Source: a virus
Length of the DNA stretch: 22,196 bases
Strand: one strand, 5' to 3'
Virus record (IMG/VR): IMGVR_UViG_3300026549_000035
Coordinates: 160,918-183,113 of that record
Shown here: one piece after another, positions 1,650 through 20,807 of the stretch
How the letters are laid out: each line of letters opens with the position of its first letter
Numbering within the stretch: position 1 is the stretch's first letter
The notes under the pieces: model-generated
Database searches by the model: none
Told to the model about the DNA's origin: nothing
What the model saw: only the letters and a program-made list of their open reading frames with translations
Translations under genes and position numbers: made by a program

Positions 1650-1777
1650 AAAAATCAAGTAAGGCTTTCTGCTGTATTTTCGTTTATTGTTTTTTGTTTT
1701 TCAGCATAAGACTATAATTGATTAATAAAATTAATTGTTGAATTACAAAAATTACAATTTGAAATGCCTTGACATTT

Positions 1778-2491
1778 CTATCCACAAGTCATTCGTCTAT
1801 GCGCAAAAAACTTTTTATCATCATTTTCATAAGGAATAACTTCAAATCCTCTATTATCTACATCTACTCCAAAATTAGTTAATAAAGTATTTAAATTACC
1901 TGGCCAATTTTTATCTTCAGCATAGATTCGATATAGAGCATATTCTTTTTTAATACTATCTTTTGAATCAAACTCGAAATGATCAATATAAGCACTATAA
2001 GTTTCAATGTCTTCTGGACGAATATATGTTCCACAAATTCCATTTTCACGAGGCATATATCCATTATAACATTTATTTACTACTGCGCGCAATTCAATAT
2101 CTGGACCACAGATATTTTTTACTTTTGATAAATCAAAGAAAATTGGAGCATCTAAAAGTATTTCATTAACGCCAAGCGCAATTAAACTTCGTAACTCCCA
2201 AAAAGTTGCAGCTGGATAAGACCAAAAAGCTTTATATCCTAAATCTTTGGCTGTTTCAATCATACGAGTATCTTCGACTGCAATAACAATATTTAAAATG
2301 TCTTTATATTTCTCTATTTGATCCCAATTAACAATTTGATCTTTTGGAAGATAAATAACTATCTCACCTTTGCAAGTCCAATCATCAGAAACAAAATCAG
2401 CCAATCTTTCAATATCATTATAATTTACTCGAATTTCTTCTGCTTTTTTTAAAACTGTTAAAGGCTATCTACTTGATAACATAAATTTCAA
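1778..2491 (-). CDS. hypothetical protein. The likely true start is TTG 2491..2489 with an AAAGGAGTG SD 7 nt upstream, and there is an in-frame TAG at 2467..2465. The track ORF 1778..2404 is the part after that TAG.
   Basis: The frame is open from TTG 2491 through the TAG to 1778. The track start TTG 2404 has no SD, whereas the 2491 start has a strong one. The terminal codon at 1780..1778 is also TAG and is followed by TAA 12 codons later. Confidence 0.5.
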
Positions 2492-8741: not shown

Positions 8742-9338
8742 ATGAGTGTATTAGCTGGAATTATGATAGGAATTGGCTGTATGTTGTATTTATAGATTGG
8801 CGGAATCCCAGGAGCTTGTTTATTTTCAGTTGGATTAATGTCAGTTTGTTTATTCAATATGAAATTATTTACGGGTCAGGCGGGAAAACTTGCAACATTA
8901 GAAATAAAACCCTTAAGCCTTTTAAAAATTTGGATTGGAAATTTTATAGGAATTTTTCTTGTTGCGCTAGTAGCCTTGGTGCATCCAAATTATGAAACTA
9001 TGGCGGAAGCCGCAAGAAATATAATGGCTTCTCGAGAAGCTGCAGGCTTTTTTTATTCTTTCGTATTAGGAATCCCTTGCGGTTTATTAATGTATTGTGC
9101 AGTCACCGCAAGAGGTCCGATGCGATTATTTTATATTATGATTTGCGTAGCAGCTTTTATTTTAGGCGGATTTTACCATTGTATTGCTGATTTATTTTAT
9201 ACTTGGTTAGGTGCTGGAAATATGCAATAGTTATGTAATGTTTTATTCGTAACTCTTGGAAATCTTGTAGGATGCAATCTTATCCCTTTAATAAAAATTA
9301 TTCCAAATAAAATTAAGAGGCTCAAAAAGAAAAAATGA
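8742..9338 (+). CDS. FNT-family-like membrane channel homolog, about 198 codons, with two in-frame TAG codons at 8793..8795 and 9228..9230
   Basis: ATG 8742 sits 7 nt after a perfect AAGGAGGTG SD. The frame is open to TGA 9336..9338 except for the two TAG codons. FNT-like segments lie on both sides of each TAG: FSVGLMSVCLFNMKLFTG (compare FocA FSLGLILCVVCGADLFTS), CVAAFILGGFYHCIADLF (compare GFEHSIANMF), and after the second TAG NVLFVTLGNLVGC (compare the FocA C-terminal VTLGNIIGG). Confidence 0.6.
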
Positions 9339-9344
9339 GCCTCT
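9315..9344. terminator. Hairpin between the convergent genes; a weak or bidirectional terminator
   Basis: AAGAGGCTC, a 12-nt A-rich loop, GAGCCTCTT. Confidence 0.4.
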
Positions 9345-9383
9345 TAACACTTGACGATTTGTAACGAAAAATATCGAGAATCG

Positions 9384-9662
9384 TCACGGATTATTTTGAT
9401 AAAATTCTTGTTCGATACGGGTATTTTCTTGTAAAATTCGAGCGTTTATACAATTCTGACAGTAGATATGCACAGTATCATCTTTGACTTCGATTATAGG
9501 AACCAATACCCCATTGCCGCATTTTTCGCAAACAGATATTTCTGTTACACATTTAGAGCAATAGTCTTCTGGATTAATTTTTCCCTGCATTGCAGGAATC
9601 ATAATCTAACAAGTTTTATTTTGAGGTAAATATAATTTGCATTTAGCGCATCGATAAAACAT
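9384..9662 (-). CDS. double zinc-ribbon protein, 92 codons. The true start is ATG 9662 and there is an in-frame TAG at 9608..9606. The track ORF 9384..9602 is only the part after the TAG.
   Basis: Minus strand reads TAAGGGGGTAAAAG ATG TTT TAT CGA TGC GCT AAA TGC ... TGT TAG ATT ATG ATT. The AAGGGGGT SD is 5 nt before the ATG. The N-terminal extension supplies a CAKC pair that complements CSKC, CEKC and CQNC. The track start at 9602 has no SD. Confidence 0.65.
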
Positions 9663-9673
9663 CTTTTACCCCC

Positions 9674-10186
9674 TTATTCAAGATTGACTGAAAATGAATA
9701 ATCTATACTTCCTTCTGGGATATGAATTTCTTGTTCTTGTCTATCTGTAATAAAAAAGAAATTAATAATAGGGTTAGAATTTCTCATTTGCTTTGTTTCG
9801 ATGTAAGCAGTTTCTTTCTTTTCGTCATCATAAAGAGTTGTTTTTTCTGCTTTTACACTATAAAAATCTTTTCCTCCGTCTTTATTTTCAGTAAAATAGT
9901 AATAATATAAATCTGAATCTATATATCCACTACCAATAAAGAAATATCCTGTTGAAAGATTATTATTATCTTTTAAAGCAACAATAGATTCTTTTTTAGT
10001 ATCATAAACTTCATCGGCTTCAAATTCTTGACCTATTAAAAAGGAACCCATTAATATAAAGAGAGTTACTGCAATTGATATTAGGACTCCTGTAAAAATA
10101 TCAGAAGCATATCCTAAATCAGCAAAAATTGCGTAAAGAATACTGCCAATAATAATTAAGATACCTATAATAAAAGCAAACCACAT
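9674..10186 (-). CDS. membrane protein with 2 N-terminal TM helices and an extracytoplasmic domain; tandem paralog of 10201..10719
   Basis: Hydrophobic N-terminus MWFAFIIGILIIIGSILYAIF...VLISIAVTLFILMGSFLIG. Ends in TAA. Confidence 0.6.
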   Translation of the reverse strand: MWFAFIIGILIIIGSILYAIFADLGYASDIFTGVLISIAVTLFILMGSFLIGQEFEADEVYDTKKESIVALKDNNNLSTGYFFIGSGYIDSDLYYYYFTENKDGGKDFYSVKAEKTTLYDDEKKETAYIETKQMRNSNPIINFFFITDRQEQEIHIPEGSIDYSFSVNLE

Positions 10187-10200
10187 AATAAAACCTCCTT

Positions 10201-10719
10201 TTATTCTCCTGTTATTGTTATTCCATATTTTACACTATCTTTTGGAATATAAAAATCATATTTAGTATGTCTAGGTATCCACATTGCAAAGAAATTTTTT
10301 TCTGCTACAAAAACTGTTTCTGTCATATAAGGAGTTTCATCTGTTTCATAAAAATTTACATCAGAACCAATTCCTATGGAAGTAAGATTTTGACCAGAAG
10401 AACTTTTTATATCTTTTTTATTATACCAATAACACTTGTTTGTTTTGTTTTGACCAGCACCTACATAGGCTATTTCATCAGGAGTTGAAATTGAAAAAGG
10501 TAAAAGCTCTACTTCTTCAGTCTTTTCAATTTTCATATTTTCAATTGAATAATGTGTGTCAATTGATGCAGAAATAATTACTCCCATTATTAATAATAAA
10601 CATATAAGACCAAATCCTATAACAATAAGAGAAAGAGCATCTTCATCTTCTTTTGCAAGGAAAAAATAATAAATTATAGTAAGAATAAAGATTATTCCTA
10701 TTAAGATCCACCAGAACAT
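10201..10719 (-). CDS. membrane protein with 2 N-terminal TM helices and a domain; same architecture as 9674..10186
   Basis: MFWWILIGIIFILTIIYYFFL...LIVIGFGLICLLLIMGVIIS. An AAAGGAGG SD is 9 nt upstream. Ends in TAA. Confidence 0.6.
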   Translation of the reverse strand: MFWWILIGIIFILTIIYYFFLAKEDEDALSLIVIGFGLICLLLIMGVIISASIDTHYSIENMKIEKTEEVELLPFSISTPDEIAYVGAGQNKTNKCYWYNKKDIKSSSGQNLTSIGIGSDVNFYETDETPYMTETVFVAEKNFFAMWIPRHTKYDFYIPKDSVKYGITITGE

Positions 10720-10940
10720 TTTTCTTCCTCCTTTAAAATAAGATCTTCTTTTTCAAGACAAGGACCGCCCTCGCCAAGAACACTAAGATTGAGAATTCTA
10801 GTCATTTCAGTATCTCCATACATTTCAACGAGATGCGTCATAACGTCAAGCCAAGATGCGCCATAGGTTATACCTTCCGCAATTATAGGTCCGTCTGTAT
10901 CTGCGTAATATTCTATTTTATAAAAATAAAAAAAGTTCAT
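10701..10940 (-). CDS. hypothetical acidic protein, 79 aa; overlaps the next gene start by 19 nt
   Basis: ORF ending in TAA. Sits in the operon downstream of 11133..11531. Confidence 0.5.
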   Translation of the reverse strand: MNFFYFYKIEYYADTDGPIIAEGITYGASWLDVMTHLVEMYGDTEMTRILNLSVLGEGGPCLEKEDLILKEEEKCSGGS

Positions 10941-10957
10941 ATTATTCTCCTTTGTAA

Positions 10958-11128
10958 TTATTTAATTAAGCAGGTGATAAGACCGCTTAAAATTAAAAAT
11001 GCAAAAATTAAAAAAAGAAAAGTAATAATCCAAAGTACCCAATCTTTTCCCATTACTGCAAGCTCTCCAATAAAATAGGCTGCGACAAAAGAAACAATCA
11101 TTAAAATAGATAAAAAAATTATTAACAT
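10958..11128 (-). CDS. small hydrophobic protein with 2 TM helices, about 56 aa, from ATG 11128
   Basis: MLIIFLSILMIVSFVAAYFIGELAVMGKDWVLWIITFLFLIFAFLILSGLITCLIK. The track start at 11182 would overlap the upstream gene by 50 nt. ATG 11128 lies 4 nt after the upstream TAA and has a weak GAGGT SD. Confidence 0.45.
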   Translation of the reverse strand: MLIIFLSILMIVSFVAAYFIGELAVMGKDWVLWIITFLFLIFAFLILSGLITCLIK

Positions 11129-11132
11129 TATT

Positions 11133-11531
11133 TTAACGTACCTCGAGATTCTTAATGGTATTTTCAAGGGTATTGAGTTCATTTTTTAGCTTTGTTATTT
11201 TTTTAGTAATAGAAATCCAAAGCTCTTTTTTAGAATCGTAATACCAATATCCAATTTCTTTTGGAGTACTACAATTAGAAAGATATCCCATTTCGTCTGC
11301 AAGTTTTATAGCTGCTTCATTACCTACAAAAAGATAATAACAATCTAATAAACCTTGAGTAGCTTTTCCTTCAAAAAGAGTCTCGTCTCCAATGATATTA
11401 TAAGCAAAATCATAAAAGCGCAATTGACCTTTTGCAGCTTCGCGTTTTTTAATATCTTCATATTGAACGCAATCATCATAATCGTCAAAAACAGTGCCAT
11501 CGTCTGCCATATAAGTGATTAACTCTTTCAT
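11133..11531 (-). CDS. hypothetical protein, 132 aa
   Basis: ORF ending in TAA. The C-terminus is coiled-coil-like (KKITKLKNELNTLENTIKNLE). Confidence 0.55.
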   Translation of the reverse strand: MKELITYMADDGTVFDDYDDCVQYEDIKKREAAKGQLRFYDFAYNIIGDETLFEGKATQGLLDCYYLFVGNEAAIKLADEMGYLSNCSTPKEIGYWYYDSKKELWISITKKITKLKNELNTLENTIKNLEVR

Positions 11532-11537
11532 TACTAT

Positions 11538-11912
11538 TTATCTCCTTTTTATAGTAGTTAGTGTTCCGTTAAAAATTTCTCTTTTTGATTCGACAACTTT
11601 ATATGCATCATCATCATCATCAAGTAAATCGTAAATTTCTTCCCACAAATAATTAATAAGAGTAGTTGAAGTGTTAAATAAAGTATTGGTTATGATAATA
11701 TTGTTTAAGTTGTTTTTTGCAAAGTAAAGAACATTTTTATTGACTGCCGCAACAATAGTTTCTTCGTTGATTAATTCTGACCATGGGATATCAGTATTTT
11801 TTTGCATATAGGTTTTAGATTGGTCATTAGGAAAATGTTGTAAGATATATTGTATATCTATTTGATTTTCAATCACTTGTGTTTGCGTTTGGCGCAATTT
11901 AATATATATCAT
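11538..11912 (-). CDS. hypothetical protein, 124 aa
   Basis: ORF ending in TAA. RBS AAAAAAAGGA upstream. Confidence 0.55.
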   Translation of the reverse strand: MIYIKLRQTQTQVIENQIDIQYILQHFPNDQSKTYMQKNTDIPWSELINEETIVAAVNKNVLYFAKNNLNNIIITNTLFNTSTTLINYLWEEIYDLLDDDDDAYKVVESKREIFNGTLTTIKRR

Positions 11913-11921
11913 GATTTTTAT

Positions 11922-12272
11922 TTATCCTTTTTTTTGACAAAGTTCAAAATATGTATCTCCAATTTTTTGTGGTGTTGATTTATACTGACAGTTATGTTCA
12001 TAATCAAGGCAAATATAAGCATTTTTATTATTAGAGCCTTTTATAATACCACATTCCATACAAGTAGACTTTTTATCCTAGTTATCCCAAGAAGAAGTCC
12101 ATTCTTCAACAAGTTCTTTTAAAAGTTCTTGTTCTAATTCAGTTAAACAATAAAAGGGAACCTGTGCCCAAACTTCCTTGTTTTTATTTTCAGATACATT
12201 TTTTTCTATACTATAACAATCATAATTATCATTAAATAAGAGTCTATATTGACCTAAAGTAATAACTTTCAT
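11922..12272 (-). CDS. hypothetical protein. The 64-aa ORF ends at TAG 12080..12078, and the frame stays open for 51 more Cys-containing codons to TAA 11924..11922.
   Basis: The extension reads IKKSTCMECGIIKGSNNKNAYICLDYEHNCQYKSTPQKIGDTYFELCQKKG, which is protein-like and fills the whole intergenic gap up to the next gene's RBS. An alternative is a separate mini-ORF from ATG 12059 with a poor RBS. Confidence 0.45.
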
Positions 12273-12276
12273 ATTA

Positions 12277-12486
12277 TCATTCCTTTTTCTCAGGTTTTCC
12301 CATATTCCATGATTGTCTTGATATAATATTTATCTCACCGTCTAATTTTTCTGAATATTTAAGTTTATTTTTAAAAGCAATAGGTAATTTTTCTTGTAAC
12401 TCTTCTTCAGTTTCCGCAAAAATATATAATTCTTTTATTTGATTTCCCCGAACGGGGGCTTCCGCAAGTATTTGATACAAATTCAT
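12277..12486 (-). CDS. hypothetical protein, 69 aa
   Basis: Strong AAAAAAAAGGAGAGG SD. Ends in TGA. Confidence 0.55.
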   Translation of the reverse strand: MNLYQILAEAPVRGNQIKELYIFAETEEELQEKLPIAFKNKLKYSEKLDGEINIISRQSWNMGKPEKKE

Positions 12487-12586
12487 TTTTTTACCTCTCC
12501 TTTTTTTTCAAATTCTAATCTACTAAATTCAAAAATAGAAATTGTTTAAGCTGACTTATAGGCATATATATTTTTTCTTTTTATCT

Positions 12587-12865
12587 TTATAAATTTTTTT
12601 TTACTTTTTTATATGAATCATAAATATCTAAATCTATTTCTGTTGAGTAATTACTTTTTATTGTTTTATAAATATGTTTTATATAAAGTAAAGTATCTTC
12701 AATATCAATAAAATAAATTTTTGCGGATCCAGACATACTGCCACGTATTTTTACTTGATAACCGTATTTTTTTTCTTTTAACTTAACATATTCTAATCCA
12801 TATCCTTCAACAGCGCCGAAGCCATATGAAAAATGATCTCTTATTAGTCCTAATGTGATTATCAT
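12587..12865 (-). CDS. hypothetical protein, 92 aa
   Basis: AAAGGAAT SD. Ends in TAA. Confidence 0.55.
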   Translation of the reverse strand: MIITLGLIRDHFSYGFGAVEGYGLEYVKLKEKKYGYQVKIRGSMSGSAKIYFIDIEDTLLYIKHIYKTIKSNYSTEIDLDIYDSYKKVKKNL

Positions 12866-12894
12866 ATTATTATTCCTTTTTTGAAAGTTATTTA

Positions 12895-13251
12895 TTATTT
12901 AAAAAATTCAATTTTTTCATATTCTTTATATTTTTTATCAAAATTTTCCTTTACTTCTGGAAAATCGTTAGATATAATAATAAGTATATCGCTTGGAAAA
13001 AAATTAATAATAATATCTTGGTTATTTTTTATAAGGTAGCCGCAATGCACGCCTCGTAGATTTATAATATCTTCATATTCAGTTGGAGAAACTGTAAATT
13101 TAATTTCTCCTATTTCTTTTTCATTACGTTGTAAATTGATAATTAAATTAATTCTTATTCTTTCCCAAAGAGCTTGTTTTAATTCATCATGATATTTTTT
13201 ATTTTCAAGATTTTTATCCCAAAGGATTAGCGGTTTTGGTCTATAATTCAT
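12895..13251 (-). CDS. hypothetical protein, 118 aa; first gene of a long minus-strand operon
   Basis: Class I promoter copy 6 lies immediately upstream. Ends in TAA. Confidence 0.55.
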   Translation of the reverse strand: MNYRPKPLILWDKNLENKKYHDELKQALWERIRINLIINLQRNEKEIGEIKFTVSPTEYEDIINLRGVHCGYLIKNNQDIIINFFPSDILIIISNDFPEVKENFDKKYKEYEKIEFFK

Positions 13252-13288
13252 TATTTTATTTTTCCTTTTTATTATTTTTTCTATATAT

Positions 13289-13317
13289 ATTATAATATAT
13301 TTTTATTAAAAAATCAA
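13289..13317 (-). promoter_or_regulatory. Class I promoter, copy 6; divergent from the plus-strand promoter of the RHH operon
   Basis: Minus strand reads TTGATT (13317..13312), a 17-nt spacer, then TATAAT (13294..13289). Confidence 0.7.
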
Positions 13318-13345
13318 TTGAGAATTTTTTTGTTAAAAAATTTTT

Positions 13346-13373
13346 TTACATTGTAGGACAAAGTTATATAAAT
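13346..13373 (+). promoter_or_regulatory. Candidate plus-strand promoter (TTTACA-16-TATAAA) for the RHH-led operon
   Basis: tttacattgtaggacaaagttatataaa. It contains the half-operator-like TTACATTGTAG. Confidence 0.35.
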
Positions 13374-13418
13374 TATTACAAAGTATTTTTATATATACAT
13401 GAAAGGAAGTGAAAGAAA

Positions 13419-13550
13419 TTGACTACTATTTCAGTTAGAATTGATGACACAGAAAAAAAGAAATTAGAAGAATTTGCCAGAAAAGAAGATTTAACTATGT
13501 CACAAATTATTCGTAAAGCTTTAAAAGAGTATTTAAAAAATAATACATAA
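13419..13550 (+). CDS. ribbon-helix-helix (CopG/Arc/MetJ-like) DNA-binding protein, 43 aa, TTG start
   Basis: The translation TTISVRIDDTEKKKLEEFARKEDLTMSQIIRKALKEYLKNNT has an N-terminal beta-strand followed by two helices. An AAAGGAAG SD is 9 nt before the TTG. It is absent from the ORF track because it is short and uses a TTG start. Confidence 0.55.
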   Translation: MTTISVRIDDTEKKKLEEFARKEDLTMSQIIRKALKEYLKNNT

Positions 13551-13567
13551 GGAGGCTCATAAGCAAA

Positions 13568-13747
13568 ATGCCAATTAACAAAATAATTTATTCAAAAAGA
13601 GTAATGGAGTCTTTAGTTGCTATGGGTAATATACCTCTTAAATCTATGCCTAATCCTTATAAGCCAGAGTTTTAGTGTTGGATTTTTGAAGTTAATGAAA
13701 AATTTTAGAAAGATATAGATAAAATATTAGGTGATAAATATGGTTGA
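13568..13747 (+). CDS. small protein. ATG 13568 sits after a TAAGGAGG SD, 35 codons run to TAG 13673..13675, the frame continues through a second TAG at 13706..13708 to TGA 13745..13747, and it overlaps the next start.
   Basis: MPINKIIYSKRVMESLVAMGNIPLKSMPNPYKPEF then TAG, CWIFEVNEKF then TAG, KDIDKILGDKYG then stop. The read-through text is protein-like and ends in an ATGnnTGA-style overlap with the downstream gene. Confidence 0.4.
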
Positions 13748-14111
13748 GCGCACTTTTATATTTTATCCTGATTGGCTTAATTTTATTGAACGTATTAGTA
13801 ATGAAAAAGATAAATTAGATTTATATGATATTATTGCTTCTTATGGGTGTCATGGAGAATATTCAAATAAAAATCCTATGATGACTGCTGTTTTTGAATC
13901 TTTAATTAAACCTAAAATAGATATTGCGCAAGGTCGTTATGAAGAAAAAATTACTATGGGAAAGAATTATGGACGTAAAAAAATAGTAGATGATAATATG
14001 GTCAAGTAGTTGGCGCAAGAAGGCATGCGCGCAAAAGATATTGCTGAGAAATTAAACGTGTCGGTTGATACGGTTTATCATAGTGATGGATGGAAAAATA
14101 GAAATTTGTAA
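13740..14111 (+). CDS. two-domain DNA-binding protein. An 89-aa N-terminal domain ends at an in-frame TAG (14007..14009) and is followed by a 33-codon sigma70-region-4-like HTH. It is possibly an ArpU/RinA-like regulator or an initiator-like protein.
   Basis: ATG 13740 sits after a TAGGTGAT SD. The frame after the TAG is contiguous and reads LAQEGMRAKDIAEKLNVSVDTVYHSDGWKNRNL, a classic HTH. The internal ATG 14025 is only 1 nt after its AAGAAGG and cannot initiate well. Confidence 0.5.
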
Positions 14112-14262
14112 AAATAGATGTGATTTTTTACAAAAAATATTTGTAAAAATAGATATTGTTTTTACAAAAAATATTTGTAAAAATACAAATTTTATTTGTA
14201 AAAAACAAATTTTTATTTGTAATTTGTAATTTGCTCTATTATCTATTACAAATTACAAATTT
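14101..14262. repeat. Array of TTGTAA/TTACAA half-sites in direct and inverted arrangement, including two 36-bp tandem units TTTGTAAAAATAGAT...TTTTTACAAAAAATA
   Basis: tttgtaaaaatagat appears twice. ttttacaaaaaatatttgtaaaaata appears twice. Also present are tttgtaaaaaacaaat, tttgtaatttgtaattt and attacaaattacaaat. Confidence 0.8.
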
Positions 14263-14281
14263 TCCACTGACGTGGAAAATA
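14262..14281. promoter_or_regulatory. Palindrome TTTTCCAC-N4-GTGGAAAA, a candidate operator
   Basis: ttttccactgacgtggaaaa has 8-bp inverted arms. Confidence 0.4.
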
Positions 14282-14285
14282 TGTT

Positions 14286-14341
14286 AAAGAGTATTTTAAA
14301 AATCCTAGTCGCTTCGCTCCTAGGCTTTTATAAAATACTCT
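14286..14341. repeat. Long imperfect inverted repeat (stem-loop with about 20 bp of stem) followed by a GGGGCTTTTT tract. It may act as a terminator or processing site upstream of 14372..14617.
   Basis: AGAGTATTTTAAAAATCCTAG, loop tcgcttcgctc, CTAGGCTTTTATAAAATACTCT. Confidence 0.5.
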
Positions 14342-14371
14342 AGGGGCTTTTTATGAAAGGAGAAATGAAAA

Positions 14372-14617
14372 ATGAATGATAATATTTTTTCAACAGAAAA
14401 AAATCGTGAAATAAGTGAGCTTCAAGAAAGAATAAAAAGAGATTGGATTTTAAGAGAAACAGACGAAGAAGATGAATATGAGTTAGAAATAGATGAAGAA
14501 GATTTAGAAAATGTTATAGAAGATATTCTTGAAAGACGAGAGAGAAAAAATAGAGAACTCTTAAAAGAGATAGTAGATTTATTAGAAGATATAAAGATAT
14601 ATCTGAGAAGATTATAG
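14372..14617 (+). CDS. highly acidic coiled-coil-like protein, 81 aa. It ends at TAG and is followed 2 codons later by TAA.
   Basis: SD AAAGGAGAAATG. The translation is Glu/Asp-rich: ...EEDEYELEIDEEDLENVIEDILERRERKNRELL. Confidence 0.5.
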   Translation: MNDNIFSTEKNREISELQERIKRDWILRETDEEDEYELEIDEEDLENVIEDILERRERKNRELLKEIVDLLEDIKIYLRRL

Positions 14618-14640
14618 TTTAAATAAAAGGAGGAATTTTT

Positions 14641-14886
14641 ATGGCAGGAATCCCATCAAAAATTGAACCTACTATGAAAGGGAAAAAGTTACCTTTAATA
14701 TAGAGAGTAAAATATCATGAATTAGATAGTTTTCTTAATAGAAAAGATATTGTTAGAGGAGAACTATTTATAGATGAGAACACTGGGGATTTATATGTAG
14801 CAGAAAAAGGCGATGTAGAAACTTATTGGTTAAGATTAGGTAGAACAGATTTAGAAAAAGAAGAACTGGAACAAAACAAAAATCCA
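14641..14886 (+). CDS. hypothetical protein, 81 codons, with an in-frame TAG at 14701..14703. The 61 codons downstream have no ATG, GTG or TTG.
   Basis: AAGGAGG SD 8 nt before ATG 14641. The translation is MAGIPSKIEPTMKGKKLPLI then TAG, then RVKYHELDSFLNRKDIVRGELFIDENTGDLYVAEKGDVETYWLRLGRTDLEKEELEQNKNPFLN then TGA. Confidence 0.5.
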
Positions 14887-15013
14887 TTTTTAAATTGAAA
14901 TTAAAATAAAAATGTGATATTATATAAATAATAAAAAAGGGCTTTTATAAAAATGAATTGAAAATTCATTTTTATAAAAGAAAAATGAAATGAAAAATGA
15001 GGAAGGTAGAAAT

Positions 15014-15412
15014 ATGAATTATTATTATGAGTCAGGTCATATAGGAAATTATAAAGGACATCAAGTTTGGATAATTGATTATAGTAATTTTTATAGAGAA
15101 GATACTATTGATAGTGATGATATTTGGGCAGTAAGAACAGGACCAAATCAAAGTATTAAATTAGTATTAAAAGGATATGAATTTGGTCAAATGAGTCATA
15201 GTGGAGAAGTGTCTTTATATAGAAAAGAGAAGCCTTTTAACTTTTACCATAGAAGAGAAGAAAAGGAAGTTAAAAAAACTCCGGTAGTAGTAGAAGTAAA
15301 AGAGGAGCCTTTAGAAATTAATTATAGTGATTATACTCAACCAGTAGATATGTTTTTTAAGAATCTAAAAGAGTGGTGGAAAGATTTAGATAAGGAGCTT
15401 AAATCAATATAA
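15014..15412 (+). CDS. hypothetical protein, 132 aa. The second ATG, with a GAGGAAGG SD, is preferred over the track start at 14990.
   Basis: MNYYYESGHIGNYKGHQVW... Ends in TAA. Confidence 0.5.
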   Translation: MNYYYESGHIGNYKGHQVWIIDYSNFYREDTIDSDDIWAVRTGPNQSIKLVLKGYEFGQMSHSGEVSLYRKEKPFNFYHRREEKEVKKTPVVVEVKEEPLEINYSDYTQPVDMFFKNLKEWWKDLDKELKSI

Positions 15413-15459
15413 GATAGGTATTCTACCTATTTTATATAGGGTACAGGTTTTATATAGAA

Positions 15460-15575
15460 ATAATTAAAAACTGTGAAGATTATAGTTTTATAGTAAAAAT
15501 TAAGAAATTATATTGAAAATTGTAAAAATTGCGGTTTTATATTAAAAATTGCAATTCTATGTAGAAAATTGTGGT
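15460..15575. repeat. Iteron-like AAAATTG(Y) repeats phased at about 10 and 20 bp
   Basis: aaaattg copies begin at 15516, 15525, 15545 and 15565, with variant copies upstream. Confidence 0.6.
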
Positions 15576-15579
15576 TTAG

Positions 15580-15620
15580 TGGTGGCCCCGTTCGGTGTTA
15601 ATTGTAACACCATTTTATCG
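15580..15620 (+). other. CCCCGTTCGGTG motif (inverted copy of the island motif) plus the GGTGTTA-ATTG-TAACACC hairpin with a T-tract
   Basis: ggtggccccgttcggtgttaattgtaacaccattttat. Confidence 0.5.
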
Positions 15621-15640
15621 TAATCGTCATCGTTATCATA

Positions 15641-15689
15641 ATAAATAAAAAACCCTTGAGCAACTCGCTCAAGGGTTTTTCTTATTTTC
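15641..15689. terminator. Bidirectional rho-independent terminator
   Basis: AAAAAACCCTTGAGC, loop AACTC, GCTCAAGGGTTTTTCTTATTTT. Confidence 0.85.
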
Positions 15690-15696
15690 ACTTTTA

Positions 15697-16131
15697 TTAT
15701 CTAACCATTCGATTAAGGAAATCCTCAATAGGGTCGACTGCATGAACTGCACCAGCCTTTTGGCTCTTATTTTTCAATGCTTCGAGCTCCTGGCTTAGCT
15801 CAATATACTTAGTGAGAAAAGGAAGAGATTCATCGATAACTTTAACGATCTCTTCTGGATCAGCCTCTTCGATAGCATCAAGAATCTCATCATCAACCTC
15901 ATAAACTGCCAAAAGATCTTCAAATGCAAAGAGAACTGCTTCTACAGCCGCTATCTTCTGGGCAAAAAGATTATCCTGCTTTGCTTTTGCTTCAGCTTCT
16001 GCTTTTTTGGCAGCTTCCGCAGCCTTATGCTTCTCATTTGCTTCGTTCAAGCTCTTGGTAAGTGATGCAGCAATATCTTCCGCCGACTCACCATTCTGTA
16101 GACGCTCAAGAATCTCATTTGTATAATCCAT
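15697..16131 (-). CDS. acidic Ala/Glu/Lys-rich protein, 144 aa; paralog of 2660..3058
   Basis: GC-richer than its surroundings. Class I promoter copy 7 is immediately upstream and a strong terminator lies downstream. Ends in TAA. Confidence 0.65.
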   Translation of the reverse strand: MDYTNEILERLQNGESAEDIAASLTKSLNEANEKHKAAEAAKKAEAEAKAKQDNLFAQKIAAVEAVLFAFEDLLAVYEVDDEILDAIEEADPEEIVKVIDESLPFLTKYIELSQELEALKNKSQKAGAVHAVDPIEDFLNRMVR

Positions 16132-16166
16132 TTATAAAAACCTCTTTTCTTTTATTTTCTATATAT

Positions 16167-16195
16167 ATTATATCAAAAATTTTTATAAAAATCAA
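16167..16195 (-). promoter_or_regulatory. Class I promoter, copy 7
   Basis: Minus strand reads TTGATT (16195..16190), a 17-nt spacer, then TATAAT (16172..16167). Confidence 0.7.
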
Positions 16196-16199
16196 ATTT

Positions 16200-16705
16200 A
16201 GGCTCGTAAAGCCACGAAAATTTTTCTGTGGAAAGAAATTCATGAGAACTTCCTTTTGGATAGCTGGGCTGATAAAAATCAGCCTTTGTAAATACGCCAT
16301 AGCAAAGATGAGAACTATGCGTTTTTCCCCGAACGGACATCCGAACGGGAATGGACAGGAACGAAAGAGCTGCGGAAAATTTTTGGTTTTTTTTAATATT
16401 ATACCAAAAAATTTTTTGAAAGTCAAACAAGTAATTATAAAAACAAACACCGAGCGGGGCCGGCAAGTAACTTTCAAATGAGATAAAAGCCATATGGGGC
16501 AAACACCGAACGGGGGCCCGCCCGGGGGGGCAGAGTGGTAAAAAAAAATTTCCCATTTCGGGAAAATGAGATGCCATATGGGGGGCCGCACTTGCCCTCG
16601 AAAAATTTGCATATGGGGTTAGGTGCGGGAATTCGGGCGACGTCTATTGTCGTCGGCCCGATGATTTTATCGCTTTAAGCCACTAAAGTGCCCGGGCGCA
16701 AACCC
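16200..16705. other. GC-rich non-coding island with reiterated CACCGAACGGGG and CATATGGGG motifs and several hairpins. The overlapping track ORFs here are judged spurious.
   Basis: caccgagcgggg at 16448, caccgaacgggg at 16504, ccccgaacgg and ccgaacggg near 16326..16347. catatgggg appears three times near 16491, 16575 and 16610. A bulged hairpin GGGCGACG...CGTCGGCCC is also present. Confidence 0.6.
16538..16568 (-). terminator. Rho-independent terminator for the minus-strand class II unit arrays
   Basis: Minus strand reads ATTTTCCCGAAATGGGAAAT followed by TTTTTTTTT. Confidence 0.7.
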
Positions 16706-16707
16706 TA

Positions 16708-16926
16708 TTAATTAATAGGGGGCGCAATTTTAGTAATCATATTTTCATAAAGGCATATTAATCCTTGATCGAAATGAACCCAAGGAATCATGTCACCCTC
16801 ACGATTCAAGATATACCAACCGACAGTCTTTTTCTTCTCTCTCCAATCCCAAAATTCACACCAGTAGTGAGAGACAAAGCGAGGCCTAATTTTCGTATTC
16901 CACCAAAATCTGAAGTTTGTAAACAT
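16708..16926 (-). CDS. hypothetical Trp-rich small protein, 72 aa
   Basis: It has its own class II promoter. The stop TAA is embedded in the hairpin CCCTATTAATTAATAGGG. Confidence 0.5.
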   Translation of the reverse strand: MFTNFRFWWNTKIRPRFVSHYWCEFWDWREKKKTVGWYILNREGDMIPWVHFDQGLICLYENMITKIAPPIN

Positions 16927-16956
16927 CTTTATTATCTCCTTTTCTTTGATGTATTT

Positions 16957-16985
16957 ATTATAGCGTGAATAAATTAAAATGTCAA
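16957..16985 (-). promoter_or_regulatory. Class II promoter: TTGACA-17-TATAAT, no operator
   Basis: Minus strand reads TTGACA TTTTAATTTATTCACGC TATAAT, then the conserved leader AAATACATCAAAGAAAAGGAG. Confidence 0.7.
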
Positions 16986-16991
16986 GAGTTT

Positions 16992-17174
16992 TTAAAAATC
17001 TTCTTTTCTTTTTATGATTCGTTTATTATTTTTTGAATCAATAATAATAACATACTTATCACCTACACGAGCACGCCAATGGTGAGAAAAGAAGTAGTCT
17101 GCAATAGTTTCCTTGTTATTATCACAGACAGACCAAGTATGATCTGAAAATAAAAGAATTACTTTATCAATCAT
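16992..17174 (-). CDS. hypothetical small protein, 60 aa; weakly similar to the 16708..16926 product (SHHW / SHYW motif)
   Basis: Own class II promoter and operator. Ends in TAA. Confidence 0.45.
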   Translation of the reverse strand: MIDKVILLFSDHTWSVCDNNKETIADYFFSHHWRARVGDKYVIIIDSKNNKRIIKRKEDF

Positions 17175-17203
17175 TTTTATCTCTCCCTTTTTTTGATATA
17201 TTT

Positions 17204-17252
17204 ATTATAACATACTATAACTTAATTGTCAATAATTATTACAATTTTGTAA
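17204..17252 (-). promoter_or_regulatory. Class II promoter (TTGACA-17-TATAAT) with the upstream operator TTACAA-TT-TTGTAA (17239..17252)
   Basis: tgtcaa at 17227..17232, attata at 17204..17209 and ttacaattttgtaa at 17239..17252 on the plus strand. Confidence 0.7.
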
Positions 17253-17265
17253 CCAGCCCGGGTGC

Positions 17266-17292
17266 AGTTCTCTCACCAGTGGAGAGAGAACA
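17266..17292 (-). other. Stop-overlapping hairpin GTTCTCTC...GAGAGAAC at the end of 17273..17560
   Basis: gttctctcaccagtggagagagaac. Confidence 0.5.
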
Positions 17293-17560
17293 CATAGCTT
17301 ACCTTATGATTAAATTTAACTTGATATCCTAATGTTTCGTAATAATTACGAATAATAGTATTTCTTTCATCTGTGTCCAAATCATAAAAACGGTTTCTAT
17401 CTTGAAATCTTAGAAGGATACAAGTTTCGCCCCTACTTGCGGCTGTTTCTATTAACTTATCAAAACGATTAAACTCAGAAAAAAGATAGCTATTAGCAAT
17501 TTCTTTTCTCTTTGTTTGAGCTTCTGTGGCTATCTGTCTTGCTTCTTTTGCACTAATCAT
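17273..17560 (-). CDS. hypothetical protein, 95 aa
   Basis: AAAGGAG SD 9 nt upstream. In an operon 5 nt after 17566..17832. Ends in TGA. Confidence 0.55.
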   Translation of the reverse strand: MISAKEARQIATEAQTKRKEIANSYLFSEFNRFDKLIETAASRGETCILLRFQDRNRFYDLDTDERNTIIRNYYETLGYQVKFNHKVSYVFSLHW

Positions 17561-17565
17561 CTTAT

Positions 17566-17832
17566 TTACTCCTTTTCTAAACAGCGATTAATAAATCGAC
17601 TTATCTTATCTTCTGCAACAGAAACTTCTTTTAAAAGTGAAAATAAGAAATCATTAAAATTATCGTCATAATAAAGAGCGACAAAACTATTGATATCCCC
17701 AGTACCGTGAGTTTCTTCTGCGATAAAATCAGTAATAAGGTCAATCATGCGAGTTACTATCTGAACAGCTTGTAAATTTTTTTCATCAAGATTTAAAGAA
17801 ACCTTTATTACTTTTTCAGAGTCTATTGTCAT
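17566..17832 (-). CDS. hypothetical acidic protein, 88 aa
   Basis: Class II promoter and operator upstream. Ends in TAA. Confidence 0.55.
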   Translation of the reverse strand: MTIDSEKVIKVSLNLDEKNLQAVQIVTRMIDLITDFIAEETHGTGDINSFVALYYDDNFNDFLFSLLKEVSVAEDKISRFINRCLEKE

Positions 17833-17863
17833 TTTTTTTATCTCCTTTTCTTTTGATGTATTT

Positions 17864-17917
17864 ATTATAGCACATCAAGATAAAAAAGTCAATAGTTAAA
17901 ATATTACAATTTTGTAA
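17864..17917 (-). promoter_or_regulatory. Class II promoter (TTGACT-17-TATAAT) with the operator TTACAATTTTGTAA (17904..17917) and the GCCCGGGCG box (17921..17929)
   Basis: agtcaa at 17887..17892 and attata at 17864..17869. The conserved leader is AAATACATCAAAAGAAAAGGAGATAAAAAAAATG. Confidence 0.7.
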
Positions 17918-17942
17918 TCTGCCCGGGCGCAAACCCCTTTGA

Positions 17943-18294
17943 TTAATCATCTTCAAAGGGGCATTCGTCAAACCAAGGACAAGAAGAAGCGCAAGATTCA
18001 GCAGAATCATCACATGGAACATTTAACTTGAAATCATCGGGAAGTGGGAGAGGAGGAAATATTACTTGATCATTTATGATGTGCGCTCCTGACTCAAGAG
18101 CTTCTGCGATGTCAAACCCTTGGAGCCAATCAAGTAAGGCTTCTGCGCAACTTTTTTAAGCAGGTATCCTCATCAACCTTTTGACGGTATTTATCACAAG
18201 CTGTCCAATCGCCTACTTCATAGATAGGACAATCATTACAATAAACTGTTGCTTTGTCAATAAGTTTTTTAAGTTTATTATCATTTACAATCAT
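17943..18294 (-). CDS. Cys-rich protein, about 117 aa, interrupted by a +1 frameshift at an A6 run (minus-strand heptamer A_AAA_AAG, plus-strand T6 at 18152..18157)
   Basis: Frame 0 from ATG 18294 reads MIVNDNKLKKLIDKATVYCNDCPIYEVGDWTACDKYRQKVDEDTCLKK and then stops soon at TGA 18132. The +1 frame is open from just before the A-run to TAA 17945 and reads KSCAEALLDWLQGFDIAEALESGAH...NVPCDDSAESCASSCPWFDECPFEDD. Removing one A joins the two frames. Confidence 0.5.
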
Positions 18295-18332
18295 TTTTAT
18301 AACCTCTCTTCTTAACCTTTTGGAACAAGCTC

Positions 18333-18590
18333 TTAGTAATCAACACTAATGTAACACGCTTCACCACGAGTCATACCATTTTCAAGTAAAACTTCTGCAA
18401 CATAACGCTCAGGTTTATTTAATTCCTCAAAATCTTTTTCATCTTTAGGAATCCAAAAATAAATTGCGCCACTTTGTGGAGGGCAGTATGATTCGTTAAA
18501 TTCTCCTTCTACATCTTCACCATATTTTTTTTGAATAAGGGTAAAAACTTCACTGGAATCATACACTTTATACATTTTGAACTGAAACAT
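18333..18590 (-). CDS. hypothetical protein, 85 aa
   Basis: Class II promoter and operator upstream. Ends in TAA. Confidence 0.55.
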   Translation of the reverse strand: MFQFKMYKVYDSSEVFTLIQKKYGEDVEGEFNESYCPPQSGAIYFWIPKDEKDFEELNKPERYVAEVLLENGMTRGEACYISVDY

Positions 18591-18620
18591 TTTTTTATCT
18601 CCTTTTCTTTTGATGTATTA

Positions 18621-18669
18621 AGTATAACACAGTCAGAAGAAAAAGTCAATAGCTATTACAATTTTGTAA
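18621..18669 (-). promoter_or_regulatory. Class II promoter (TTGACT-17-TATACT) with the operator TTACAATTTTGTAA (18656..18669) and the GCGCCCGGGCGC box (18684..18695)
   Basis: agtcaa at 18644..18649 and agtata at 18621..18626. Confidence 0.65.
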
Positions 18670-18695
18670 CTTTTTTTTTATTGCGCCCGGGCGCT

Positions 18696-18800
18696 CGGAG
18701 GCGTTTACACTCGCTATCCGAGGCACTACTCAGGAACGTGGTAGGAGCACGTCACTCTTTTCATGTCCTACCCTCGAATAGCAACTGTAAACGCCCCCAG
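18696..18800. ncRNA. A ~105-nt GC-rich long imperfect hairpin (about 30 bp paired in three stem segments) inserted between a gene-end hairpin and a promoter box. It is a candidate structured RNA or protein-binding palindrome of unknown class.
   Basis: Outer stem GGCGTTTACA/TGTAAACGCC, middle stem GCTATCCGAGG/CCTCGAATAGC with one wobble pair, inner stem GGTAGGA/TCCTACC. A 17-nt asymmetric loop contains ACGTG. It fails a tRNA cloverleaf test. Confidence 0.35.
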
Positions 18801-18805
18801 GGGGG

Positions 18806-18828
18806 GTTGAGGGGTTAACCCTCAACCT
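18806..18828 (-). other. Perfect 9-bp hairpin GGTTGAGGG-GTTAA-CCCTCAACC overlapping the stop of 18815..19212
   Basis: ggttgaggggttaaccctcaacc. Confidence 0.6.
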
Positions 18829-19212
18829 CAGCAGGAGCTTCATAGACTCCCACAGGAGCGAAGTAGGTTCTGCGCTTTACGCTACCCTTAGACAGCTCAC
18901 CGGCCTGAATAGCCTGACGAAGCAAAGCAGAAACATGCTGATTGCTGTCGCCTTCAACCGCAGGACACTCTTTGAGCAAATCGCTAACGGTGTAACCGTT
19001 CGACCCCTCAACAAAGTGAGTATCGATATACTCTACCAGACGCTCACGAACAACAGCGTTCTCAGTCTGACGAGCGGTAGGTTTACGCTCTATGCCAGAC
19101 TTCTTGTCGAGCTGTTCAACCATCTTCTGGAGCTTCTCAGCTACCTCGGTAGGCAGGTCATAACTCTCCAAACATAAGCAAGAGCCTTACGGTTAGTCAT
19201 CTTATTAGTCAT
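18815..19212 (-). CDS. GC-rich (roughly 50% by eye) putative DNA-binding protein of uncertain fold. The RBS-supported start ATG 19212 is out of frame by 1 nt with the long ORF, so there is a frameshift or indel near 19166..19176.
   Basis: AAAGGA SD 9 nt before ATG 19212, which gives MTNKMTNRKALAYV. The long ORF from TTG 19171 has no SD and reads ESYDLPTEVAEKLQKMVEQLDKK... Inserting one T in the TTT run joins them as ...ALAYVLESYDL.... Codon composition is unlike its neighbours. Confidence 0.5.
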
Positions 19213-19290
19213 AGTATCAATCCTTTCAGCGTTGGTCGCCACCCAAATTTTTATTGTCAAGGGAGGTTTTCCTTCCCTTTGACTGTCTTT

Positions 19291-19345
19291 ATTATATCAC
19301 ATAGAGAGGAAAAAGTCAAGGGGGTTTTCAAATTTTTTTGAAAAT
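19291..19345 (-). promoter_or_regulatory. Class II-type promoter (TTGACT-17-TATAAT) with a different upstream palindrome, TTTTCAAA-N4-TTTGAAAA (19326..19345), and a structured leader
   Basis: agtcaa at 19314..19319 and attata at 19291..19296. The leader hairpin GTCAAAGGGAAGG-AAAA-CCTCCCTTGAC is at 19256..19286. Confidence 0.55.
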
Positions 19346-19533
19346 CTGTTTCGTTACCGTGTATCCACAAAAGAGAGAACCTCGTGGGAGGGACTTTTTA
19401 TCTCTCTCCCCTTGACTGTAATATTATTATAGCAGATTCAATTGGTTTTGTCTATTGGCAAAATGCACAAAGGATTTTCAACATTTTGTTTTATTTTGTG
19501 CATTTTGCCGGGGCACCCGGGCGCTGAGTGCTA

Positions 19534-19866
19534 TTACGAAATAAAGGCAATAGCACGACAGTCAGGCTTCCACTCAAAAAACTTTTCTAAGTGATATTTA
19601 TTATAGAATTTTAAAAATGCTTGTTCATCTTTTGGATTTAAAACATACTTATCTTTATTAAATTCTTTAATATCTTCACCATAGTCAAGGATAGTATACA
19701 CAACCCCAACAAAATGCTCTTCGTCTGCCCAATCATTAAGGCATTTTGCCCATTTGTTTTCCCAGCCTTCACGGTCATTAATATCCTCAATAATATCTTC
19801 AATTGCTTCAAAATCTTCTTTACTAATAATTATGCCGTAACCAATAGCAAAAGAAAAATCTATAGC
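19534..19866 (-). CDS. hypothetical protein, about 110 aa from ATG 19866
   Basis: An AAAGGAG SD lies 9 nt before ATG 19866, and the track start at 19878 abuts the SD. It is in an operon after 19897..20337. The stop is embedded in the hairpin GTGCTATT...AATAGCAC. Confidence 0.5.
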   Translation of the reverse strand, partial: AIDFSFAIGYGIIISKEDFEAIEDIIEDINDREGWENKWAKCLNDWADEEHFVGVVYTILDYGEDIKEFNKDKYVLNPKDEQAFLKFYNKYHLEKFFEWKPDCRAIAFIS

Positions 19867-19896
19867 CATTTTTTTCATCTCCTTTCTTTGTCCCCC

Positions 19897-20337: not shown

Positions 20338-20360
20338 AGGGTATCAATCCTTTCTCTCTT

Positions 20361-20803: not shown

Positions 20804-20807
20804 CGAA

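What the first reader, a model, noticed from the sequence alone, without database searches (positions are those of the whole stretch)
14641..14886. A 61-codon start-less open frame follows a 20-codon ORF in-frame across TAG 14701
This is the cleanest case statistically. The downstream 61 sense codons contain no ATG, GTG or TTG, so they cannot be an independent gene, yet they read as ordinary protein (VRGELFIDENTGDLYVAEKGDVETYWLRLGRTDLEKEEL). The upstream 20 codons have an ideal AAGGAGG SD at 8 nt.
Basis: seen in the sequence. Interest (0 to 1): 0.65.

Follow-up and report, generated by a model that had tools for sequence, protein, structure and literature searches.

The report
Phage gene with TAG read as glutamine
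The "20-codon ORF plus start-less open frame" is one small, conserved 85-codon phage gene whose in-frame TAG is a sense codon, most likely glutamine, because the whole element is a large bacteriophage that has reassigned TAG, a phenomenon already described for other phages.

Summary
ATG 14641 is followed by 20 codons and TAG 14701-14703. Then come 64 sense codons (not 61) with no ATG, GTG or TTG, ending at TGA 14896-14898.

It is a single gene. The fused 85-aa protein has full-length homologues. In all five related contigs whose DNA I could read (65-93% aa identity), the same codon is TAG and the downstream part evolves like coding sequence.

The TAG is one of 12 in-frame TAGs in 8 genes of the window. 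Pfam domains run straight across three of them. None of 39 complete genes ends in TAG (30 TAA, 9 TGA).

Window 1-14866 is identical to the end of a 177.5-kb metagenomic contig, which carries at least 23 tRNA genes just outside the window. On that contig, three TAGs fall in near-invariant glutamine columns that standard-code relatives encode with CAA.

Best reading: a TAG-to-Gln ("code 15") recoded large phage. This is known biology, so it is a new member of a known kind.

Not shown: the suppressor tRNA, which I did not find in the roughly 29 kb of that contig I could read, and the function of the 85-aa protein.

The parts
14627..14633 (+). Shine-Dalgarno AAGGAGG, 7 nt upstream of the ATG
   Evidence: Read directly from the sequence.
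14641..14898 (+). Single 85-codon gene (MAGIPSKIEPTMKGKKLPLI-[TAG]-RVKYHELDSF...NPFLN) of unknown function, ending at TGA 14896-14898
   Evidence: There are 12 full-length homologues. Six orthologous DNAs were codon-aligned. The ENA gene call on the identical contig gives an 85-aa product.
14701..14703 (+). In-frame TAG, codon 21, read as a sense codon (most likely Gln)
   Evidence: It is TAG in 6 of 6 orthologues at 65-93% aa identity, with differing flanking codons. The Gln assignment is inferred from other genes of the same contig.
13740..14111 (+). Neighbouring gene, DUF6291 + HTH_7 (123 aa), with in-frame TAG at 14007-14009 (codon 90)
   Evidence: Pfam DUF6291 matches residues 5-81 and HTH_7 matches residues 78-113, which spans the TAG. 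The same TAG is present in L001.
13568..13747 (+). 59-codon gene with in-frame TAGs at 13673 and 13706
   Evidence: Gene call on the identical ENA contig. The L001 orthologue has the same two TAGs.
14372..14626 (+). Acidic 84-codon gene immediately upstream. TAG at 14615 is followed by TTT AAA TAA, so whether it ends at codon 81 or 84 is ambiguous
   Evidence: More distant relatives have GAA or AGA at the TAG column.
8742..9338 (+). Formate/nitrite-transporter-family membrane protein (198 aa) with in-frame TAGs at 8793 and 9228
   Evidence: Pfam PF01226, E 5e-23, matches residues 2-179 and spans both TAGs. The alignment to PDB 3TDP spans both as well.
9384..9662 (-). Zinc-ribbon-like 92-codon gene with in-frame TAG (first base 9608, codon 19)
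   Evidence: The Zn_ribbon_6 match is weak.
11922..12272 (-). 116-codon gene with in-frame TAG (first base 12080, codon 65)
1655..2482 (-). 275-codon gene with in-frame TAGs at codons 6, 235 and 257
   Evidence: The gene call on the identical ENA contig gives 275 aa.

Best explanation
The window is part of a large bacteriophage genome in which TAG is no longer a stop but a sense codon, most likely glutamine (the NCBI "code 15" type of recoding). Window 1-14866 is identical to the end of a 177.5-kb metagenomic contig.

Positions 14641-14898 are one gene of 85 codons. It has a strong SD, an ATG start, TAG as codon 21 and TGA as its real stop.

Shown here:
- The fused frame is a conserved protein.
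- The TAG is conserved as TAG in relatives.
- TAG occurs in-frame in many genes and never as a terminator.
- TAG aligns with conserved Gln in standard-code homologues of other genes on the same contig.

Inferred from published work on recoded phages (bioRxiv 10.1101/2021.08.26.457843; PMC9523058):
- During infection a tRNA with anticodon CUA, charged with Gln, outcompetes release factor 1 at UAG.
- Before that tRNA is available, a ribosome would stop after 20 residues. TAG-containing genes are thus only expressed fully once the code switch is on.

The 85-aa protein is a small phage-specific protein of unknown function. It has a conserved beta-hairpin-like core, GELFIDENTGDLYV...YWLR.
For: One gene:
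- The fused protein has 12 homologues covering up to 100% of its length, with E-values down to 1e-46.
- The public database had translated their TAG as Q. The DNA of 5 of them (L001-L005) has TAG at exactly this codon, with differing neighbours: ATA TAG AGA, ATA TAG AAA and GTT TAG AGG.
- Downstream of the TAG, differences by codon position are 130/49/169, and 105 codon differences are synonymous.

Genome-wide recoding:
- There are 12 in-frame TAGs in 8 genes of the window.
- The 39 complete genes stop at TAA (30) or TGA (9), never at TAG.
- Pfam FNT spans 2 TAGs (E 5e-23) and HTH_7 spans 1; the FNT result is confirmed against PDB 3TDP.
- Relatives carry up to 12 in-frame TAGs per gene.
- The sequence contexts of the TAGs are heterogeneous.

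TAG = Gln:
- On the same contig, HNH gene TAGs at positions 9 and 120 fall in columns that are Q in nearly all of 24 homologues. Those positions are CAA in a standard-code NCBI contig.
- The PDDEXK_5 TAG aligns with genuine CAA in 7 of 7 homologues.
- Two HNH columns show TAG in this contig against CAA in a relative whose HNH protein is 76% identical.

Phage:
- Window 1-14866 equals ENA contig k141_7166, 177,555 bp.
- There are at least 23 tRNA genes next to the window.
- Window proteins hit PHROG families.
- There are distant matches to roughly 140-kb Enterococcus phages.
- HNH, PDDEXK and GIY-YIG genes are interspersed with tRNAs.
Against: No tRNA with a CUA anticodon was found, even with relaxed ARAGORN settings and Rfam. 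I searched the window, the adjacent 13 kb of the same contig (23 tRNAs, none Gln) and related arrays. About 148 kb of the contig could not be read.

For this particular gene there is no standard-code homologue, so the amino acid at codon 21 is inferred from other genes.

In variable columns, TAG in relatives also aligns with Leu, Met, Ser or Asn. In L015, two TAGs sit in hydrophobic columns of PDDEXK_5 copies.

No phage hallmark gene (terminase, capsid) lies in the DNA I could read. No proteomic evidence is available.
Confidence: 0.88

Rival explanations
1. Recent nonsense mutation (CAG to TAG), or a sequencing or assembly error, in an otherwise standard-code gene. The locus would be a pseudogene and only a 20-aa peptide would be made.
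For: TAG is one transition away from CAG. All database homologues display Q at this column.
Against: Those Qs are translations of TAG, not of CAA or CAG. TAG is present in 6 of 6 independently assembled sequences from different samples, down to 65% identity, and the downstream frame is intact and conserved. Seven other genes in the window carry in-frame TAGs, some inside Pfam domains.
Confidence: 0.02
2. Site-specific programmed readthrough of a genuine stop codon, as in Qbeta A1 or retroviral gag-pol. TAG would remain a stop in this genome, and a minority of ribosomes would read through to give two products, a 20-aa peptide and an 85-aa protein.
For: Suppression by a tRNA competing with RF1 is never 100% efficient, so some 20-aa product is plausible. 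No suppressor tRNA was found in the DNA I could read.
Against: TAG never serves as the terminator of any of 39 genes. The 12 in-frame TAGs have no shared context. They occur up to 3 per gene in the window and up to 12 per gene in relatives, which multiplicative low-efficiency readthrough could not sustain. TAG and CAA interchange between relatives.
Confidence: 0.06
3. TAG encodes another amino acid, for example pyrrolysine or leucine, rather than glutamine.
For: In variable columns, TAG in relatives aligns with TTA (Leu) 8 times, and with Met, Ser and others. Two TAGs in L015 sit in hydrophobic columns. Pyrrolysine is the known bacterial meaning of UAG.
Against: The only strongly conserved columns that contain a TAG are all Gln: HNH positions 9 and 120, and the Q two residues before the conserved K in PDDEXK_5. 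CAA or CAG is the commonest partner, 15 of 46. No pyl genes or Pyl-type tRNA were seen in the DNA read. [quoted passage not shown]
Confidence: 0.05

Closest known systems
TAG-to-Gln ("genetic code 15") alternatively coded phages: some crAss-like phages, Lak megaphages, Firmicutes-infecting gut clades, and phAss-1 (Borges et al. bioRxiv 10.1101/2021.08.26.457843; Peters et al. PMC9523058; Babkin et al. PMC10607447)
   Same: - A low-GC, large phage genome.
- In-frame TAGs in many genes, with TAG absent as a terminator.
- TAG aligned with Gln in standard-code homologues.
- Standard-code close relatives exist (L012 uses TAG as a real stop).
- Large tRNA complement.
   Different: - No megablast similarity to any GenBank phage, and the 85-aa gene has no tblastn match there, so this is not a described lineage.
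- No suppressor tRNA was found in the parts I could read.
- In the window the TAGs lie in small accessory or regulatory genes (HTH, transporter, zinc-ribbon). The published model emphasises structural and lysis genes. I could not see the structural module to compare.
Programmed stop-codon readthrough (Qbeta A1 protein, MuLV gag-pol)
   Same: An in-frame UAG lies between an N-terminal part with its own SD and ATG and a start-less C-terminal extension.
   Different: Here it is not one special site. There are 12 sites in 8 genes with no common context, and TAG is never used as a stop.
Repeat proteins carrying the GD(I/M)Y(V/L)DExTGD(I/V)Y motif (P0153, P0159, and the collagen-like P0161)
   Same: The conserved core of the 85-aa protein (GELFIDENTGDLYV) matches this motif: 12 stretches in P0153 and 5 in P0159.
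   Different: The 85-aa protein has a single copy and no other shared domain. It has no Pfam or PHROG match. The similarity is a short motif and does not establish homology or function.

Membership tests
TAG-recoded (code 15) phage | In-frame TAG codons in several genes, with homology continuing across them | tested here: met
   There are 12 TAGs in 8 genes. Pfam FNT and HTH_7 span TAGs, as does the PDB alignment. Full-length homologues of the 85-aa protein exist.
TAG-recoded (code 15) phage | TAG not used as a translation terminator, with TAA and TGA retained | tested here: met
   Of 39 complete genes, 30 stop at TAA, 9 at TGA and 0 at TAG. One case is ambiguous: 14372-14626 has TAG followed two codons later by TAA.
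TAG-recoded (code 15) phage | TAG positions correspond to Gln in homologues that use the standard code | tested here: met
   Three conserved columns in two genes of the same contig, outside the window, are CAA in relatives. This could not be tested for the 85-aa gene itself, because all its readable homologues also have TAG.
TAG-recoded (code 15) phage | Phage-encoded suppressor tRNA with anticodon CUA (detected in only about 40% of published TAG-recoded genomes) | tested here: inconclusive
   None was found among 23 tRNAs in L010, or in the window, or in related loci, with ARAGORN (default and relaxed) and Rfam.
TAG-recoded (code 15) phage | The element is a bacteriophage | tested here: inconclusive
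   Supporting evidence:
- a 177.5-kb contig;
- a dense tRNA array interspersed with HNH and PDDEXK genes;
- PHROG hits;
- distant matches to Enterococcus phages;
- CHAP and NlpC/P60 genes in relative L015.
No terminase, capsid or tail gene lies in the DNA I could read.
TAG-recoded (code 15) phage | Peptides showing Gln at UAG positions | not testable with these tools
   This needs proteomics of infected cells or virions.
Site-specific programmed readthrough | A single dedicated site with a conserved stimulatory context, while the stop codon remains a terminator elsewhere | tested here: not met
   There are 12 sites with heterogeneous flanks, and TAG terminates no gene.
Pyrrolysine decoding of UAG | pylT and pylS genes present, and UAG in Pyl-dependent enzymes | tested here: not met
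   No Pyl-type or CUA tRNA in the readable DNA. The TAGs lie in unrelated small proteins and align with Gln. The rest of the genome and the host were not examined.

The most novel reading that the evidence does not exclude
TAG at codon 21 is not just a synonymous Gln codon. It would be a selectively retained translational gate, kept as TAG in 6 of 6 orthologues down to 65% identity, whereas other TAGs on the contig swap with CAA in a relative.

The gate would sit in a cluster of small regulatory or accessory genes (ribbon-helix-helix-like, DUF6291-HTH_7, acidic protein, this protein) rather than in late structural or lysis genes. It would be decoded by a non-canonical or non-phage suppressor, since none of the 23 tRNAs found beside the window has a CUA anticodon.

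That would extend the "recoding times lysis" model to regulation of accessory or early genes, and would point to an unrecognised decoding factor.
Probability: 0.12. Interest if true: 0.55.

Novelty: new member of a known kind. Interest (0 to 1): 0.33.

Why it matters
Practically, standard-code annotation of this element would split or truncate at least 8 genes in 22 kb. This gene would be reported as a 20-aa peptide plus unannotated sequence.

Biologically, it adds an undescribed large, tRNA-rich phage lineage to the known TAG-to-Gln recoded phages. It has no nucleotide match to any GenBank phage. Its in-frame TAGs sit in accessory and regulatory genes, which bears on the published idea that recoding times gene expression.

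It does not reveal a new principle.

Tried and rejected
- **Pfam and PHROGs on the fused protein.** No hits, even at E <= 10.
- **IMG/VR.** A scan for relatives of the 85-aa family confirmed none. An exact 40-mer from the gene found nothing.
- **GenBank phages.** Megablast of the whole window gave no match. tblastn of the 85-aa protein gave no match. tblastn of the DUF6291-HTH_7 protein hit only the N-terminal domain in Riemerella phages, which does not reach the TAG.
- **AlphaFold2 of homologue P0001 with a 10-sequence alignment.** Mean pLDDT was 55.6, too poor for a meaningful fold search, so none was run.
- **Hunt for the suppressor tRNA.** I walked from the window into the 177.5-kb contig and into related contigs.
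  - Many tRNAs were found but none had a CUA anticodon, nor did relaxed or intron-aware ARAGORN find one.
  - An extra Rfam tRNA hit in L015 (15327-15400) reads as CAU by manual inspection.
  - An odd 71-nt tRNA with loop CCUAAAA in L017-L020 reads as UAA, not CUA.
  - A further walk was blocked because the next protein was not an allowed query, and L013 turned out to be an unrelated standard-code phage.
- **The homologues' "Q" as evidence for Gln.** Rejected as circular. Those Qs come from code-15 gene calls on TAG.

Full report
**1. The observation**

The sequence shows an ATG at 14641 preceded by AAGGAGG (14627-14633, 7 nt spacing). Twenty sense codons follow, then TAG at 14701-14703.

After the TAG the same frame stays open for 64 sense codons, not 61, ending at TGA 14896-14898. 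The feature therefore ends at 14898, not 14886. None of the 64 codons is ATG, GTG or TTG.

- P(at least 64 open codons after a TAG) = 0.0057.
- P(at least 64 open and start-less codons) = 1.8e-4.
- With 521 TAG trinucleotides in the window, that gives about 3 and about 0.1 expected.
- In the real window, 17 TAGs have at least 64 open codons downstream. Most sit just upstream of real genes or in shadow frames of genes on the other strand.

The statistic alone does not carry the case.

**2. It is one gene**

A search with the fused 85-aa sequence, with X at the TAG, found 12 proteins. Eleven cover 89-100% of the query and one covers 71%, with E-values from 1e-46 to 3e-14. All show Q at the TAG column.

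That Q is not independent evidence. When I fetched the DNA of five of these homologues (L001-L005, from five different ENA assemblies), none translated to the database protein under the standard code. Each has TAG at exactly this codon. The public gene calls had simply been made with TAG = Q.

The informative result is the conservation itself.
- All six sequences, at 65-93% amino-acid identity, keep TAG.
- The flanking codons differ: ATA TAG AGA, ATA TAG AAA and GTT TAG AGG.
- The downstream frame is intact in all of them.
- Its substitutions are distributed 130/49/169 over codon positions 1/2/3, and 105 codon differences are synonymous.

A pseudogene, an assembly error, or a 20-aa peptide gene followed by non-coding DNA would not behave this way.

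**3. The TAG is one of many**

Window 1-14866 is identical (0 mismatches) to the end of ENA contig ERZ27252065:k141_7166, which is 177,555 bp. Window 16148-22133 matches a 6.4-kb contig of the same sample.

Using those records' gene calls projected onto the window:
- 39 complete genes stop at TAA (30) or TGA (9), and none at TAG.
- 12 in-frame TAGs occur in 8 genes.
- For comparison there are 103 CAA and 35 CAG codons.

Pfam domains run straight across TAGs.
- A formate/nitrite-transporter domain (E 5e-23) spans both TAGs of 8742-9338. An alignment to the C. difficile channel 3TDP confirms this.
- HTH_7 spans the TAG of the DUF6291-HTH_7 gene at 13740-14111, two genes upstream of the finding.

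Related contigs carry genes with up to 12 in-frame TAGs. The 12 TAGs in the window have no shared sequence context. This is a reassigned codon, not a special readthrough site.

**4. Which amino acid**

The 85-aa family has no standard-code member, so I used other genes of the same contig. I reached them by walking out of the window (L006 and L010).

- *HNH endonuclease (L010 10001-10510).* It has four TAGs. Positions 9 and 120 fall in columns that are Q in almost all of 24 homologues. These include proteins from NCBI and JGI, and a standard-code NCBI contig (L012) in which both are CAA.
- *PDDEXK_5 nuclease (L010 15690-16109).* It has a TAG at the Q two residues before the conserved K. Seven of seven homologues have a genuine CAA there.
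- *A closer relative (L015).* Its HNH protein is 76% identical. It has CAA at two HNH columns where this contig has TAG.
- *Overall tally.* CAA or CAG is the commonest partner of TAG, 15 of 46.

L012 uses TAG as its real HNH stop, so standard-code relatives exist.

There are counter-observations. In variable columns TAG also aligns with Leu, Met, Ser, Asn and others. Two TAGs in L015 lie in hydrophobic columns.

Gln is well supported for the genome and inferred for codon 21.

**5. What the element is**

The evidence for a phage is as follows.
- Just beyond window position 1, the same contig carries at least 23 tRNA genes in about 12 kb, interspersed with HNH and PDDEXK genes.
- Relatives have similar arrays, plus CHAP and NlpC/P60 genes and a ROOL RNA.
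- Window proteins hit PHROG families: peptidase, NUDIX, 5'-3' deoxyribonucleotidase and several families of unknown function.
- The 565-aa protein matches roughly 140-kb Enterococcus phages distantly.
- The window has no megablast match in 50,697 GenBank phage records.

This fits a large, undescribed phage of a low-GC host. No capsid or terminase gene lies in the DNA I could read.

**6. Mechanism**

The published model for such phages involves a phage-encoded tRNA(CUA) charged with Gln by the host GlnRS. It is sometimes accompanied by RF2, and it switches UAG from stop to sense during infection. In-frame TAGs then delay expression of the genes that contain them (bioRxiv 10.1101/2021.08.26.457843). 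TAG = Gln has been confirmed by metaproteomics for crAss-like phages (PMC9523058), and similar recoded genomes have been described (PMC10607447).

I adopt this as the most likely mechanism but could not show it. No CUA tRNA was found in the window, in the adjacent 13 kb of the contig, or in related arrays. I used ARAGORN (default, relaxed and intron-aware) and Rfam. About 148 kb of the contig was out of reach. The cited survey itself detected TAG suppressor tRNAs in only about 40% of TAG-recoded genomes.

For this gene the consequence is simple. Without suppression, translation ends after 20 residues. With suppression, the 85-aa protein is made.

**7. The protein**

It has no Pfam or PHROG match. 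A profile search of 1.84 billion representatives found only 19 clusters at E <= 1e-3, mostly 54-170-aa proteins.

The conserved core, GELFIDENTGDLYV...YWLR, resembles a repeated GD(I/M)Y(V/L)DExTGD(I/V)Y motif in large repeat proteins and in a collagen-like protein. This is a motif-level resemblance only.

The AlphaFold2 model is poor (pLDDT 55.6). It predicts a short helix, a beta-hairpin over the motif and a C-terminal helix. Function remains unknown.

The gene sits in a plus-strand cluster of small genes: ribbon-helix-helix-like (my reading of the sequence, not tested), DUF6291-HTH_7, an acidic protein, this gene, and a 140-aa protein.

**8. Comparison with known systems, and verdict**

The locus meets the sequence-level criteria of a TAG-to-Gln recoded phage. 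The suppressor-tRNA criterion is inconclusive and proteomic confirmation is untestable here. It fails the criteria for site-specific readthrough, pyrrolysine decoding and a pseudogene.

The underlying phenomenon is already well described, and public pipelines had already called these contigs with TAG = Q.

Two mildly interesting points remain.
- The TAGs lie in accessory and regulatory genes rather than visibly late genes.
- Codon 21 is invariably TAG across all readable orthologues. This could reflect selection for a gate. It could equally reflect the two-step mutational path from TAG to CAA through the rarer CAG codon (35 CAG against 103 CAA).

Noticed in passing
window 16140-16700: This roughly 560-bp stretch has no convincing gene. 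Three long overlapping ORFs on both strands are probably spurious. GC is higher, with G/C-rich runs (CCGAACGGGGGCCCGCCCGGGGGGGCAG) alternating with A/T-rich promoter-like repeats. It is where the two ENA contigs of the same sample overlap or break. It is conserved in L001 (92%), L002 (75%) and L005 (86%). Rfam found nothing significant, so it could be a structured RNA or a regulatory region.
   Followed up: partly
L010 8192-20105 (same 177.5-kb contig, starting about 1.7 kb beyond window position 1): There are 23 tRNA genes in about 12 kb: Met x4, Leu x3, Glu x2, Arg x2, Ser x2 and others. They are interleaved with HNH and PDDEXK_5 nuclease genes. The array contains no tRNA-Gln and no suppressor tRNA.
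   Followed up: yes
L015 8409-8990; L010 17787-17897: A full-length ROOL RNA (Rfam RF03087, 314.6 bits) lies inside the tRNA array of a related contig. A skipping-rope RNA (RF02924, 43.8 bits) lies in the array of the window's own contig. The called 301-aa "gene" at L010 16653-17558 (-) overlaps a tRNA and looks non-coding.
   Followed up: no
L017 3963-4033 (also L018, L019, L020): An unusual 71-nt tRNA is called Leu(UAA). It lacks the long variable arm of Leu tRNAs and has the anticodon loop CCUAAAA, with C instead of U at position 33. Its identity is unclear.
   Followed up: partly
window 15000-22196: The right-hand third of the window has higher GC (0.32-0.40 against 0.24-0.31) and no in-frame TAG in about 1,400 codons. 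There are 12 in about 4,200 codons to the left. Recoded codons may be unevenly distributed between modules.
   Followed up: partly
window 22070-22196 (-): Upstream of the 91-aa ORF at 21795-22070, the open frame continues as a long run of AAG/AAA codons (poly-Lys, K x 30 or more). This is a low-complexity A-rich tract at the window edge.
   Followed up: no
window 3169-4866 (-) and window 1-546 (-) / L006 14321-15775: Two large paralogous proteins (565 and 484 aa) share a ...HPLD(F/Y)(L/M)(S/T)AS.N...W.SC... motif and Cys-rich zinc-ribbon-like C-termini. Neither has a Pfam or PHROG match. The 565-aa protein is distantly related to hypothetical proteins of Enterococcus phages of about 140 kb.
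   Followed up: partly
L010 10465-10537 versus HNH gene L010 10001-10510: Under TAG = sense, the HNH gene gains a 14-residue C-terminal extension (…GESFSG-TAG-DLGLQNQ) that overlaps the tRNA-Trp gene. Standard-code homologues end about 155 aa, and L012 ends at a real TAG stop there.
   Followed up: partly
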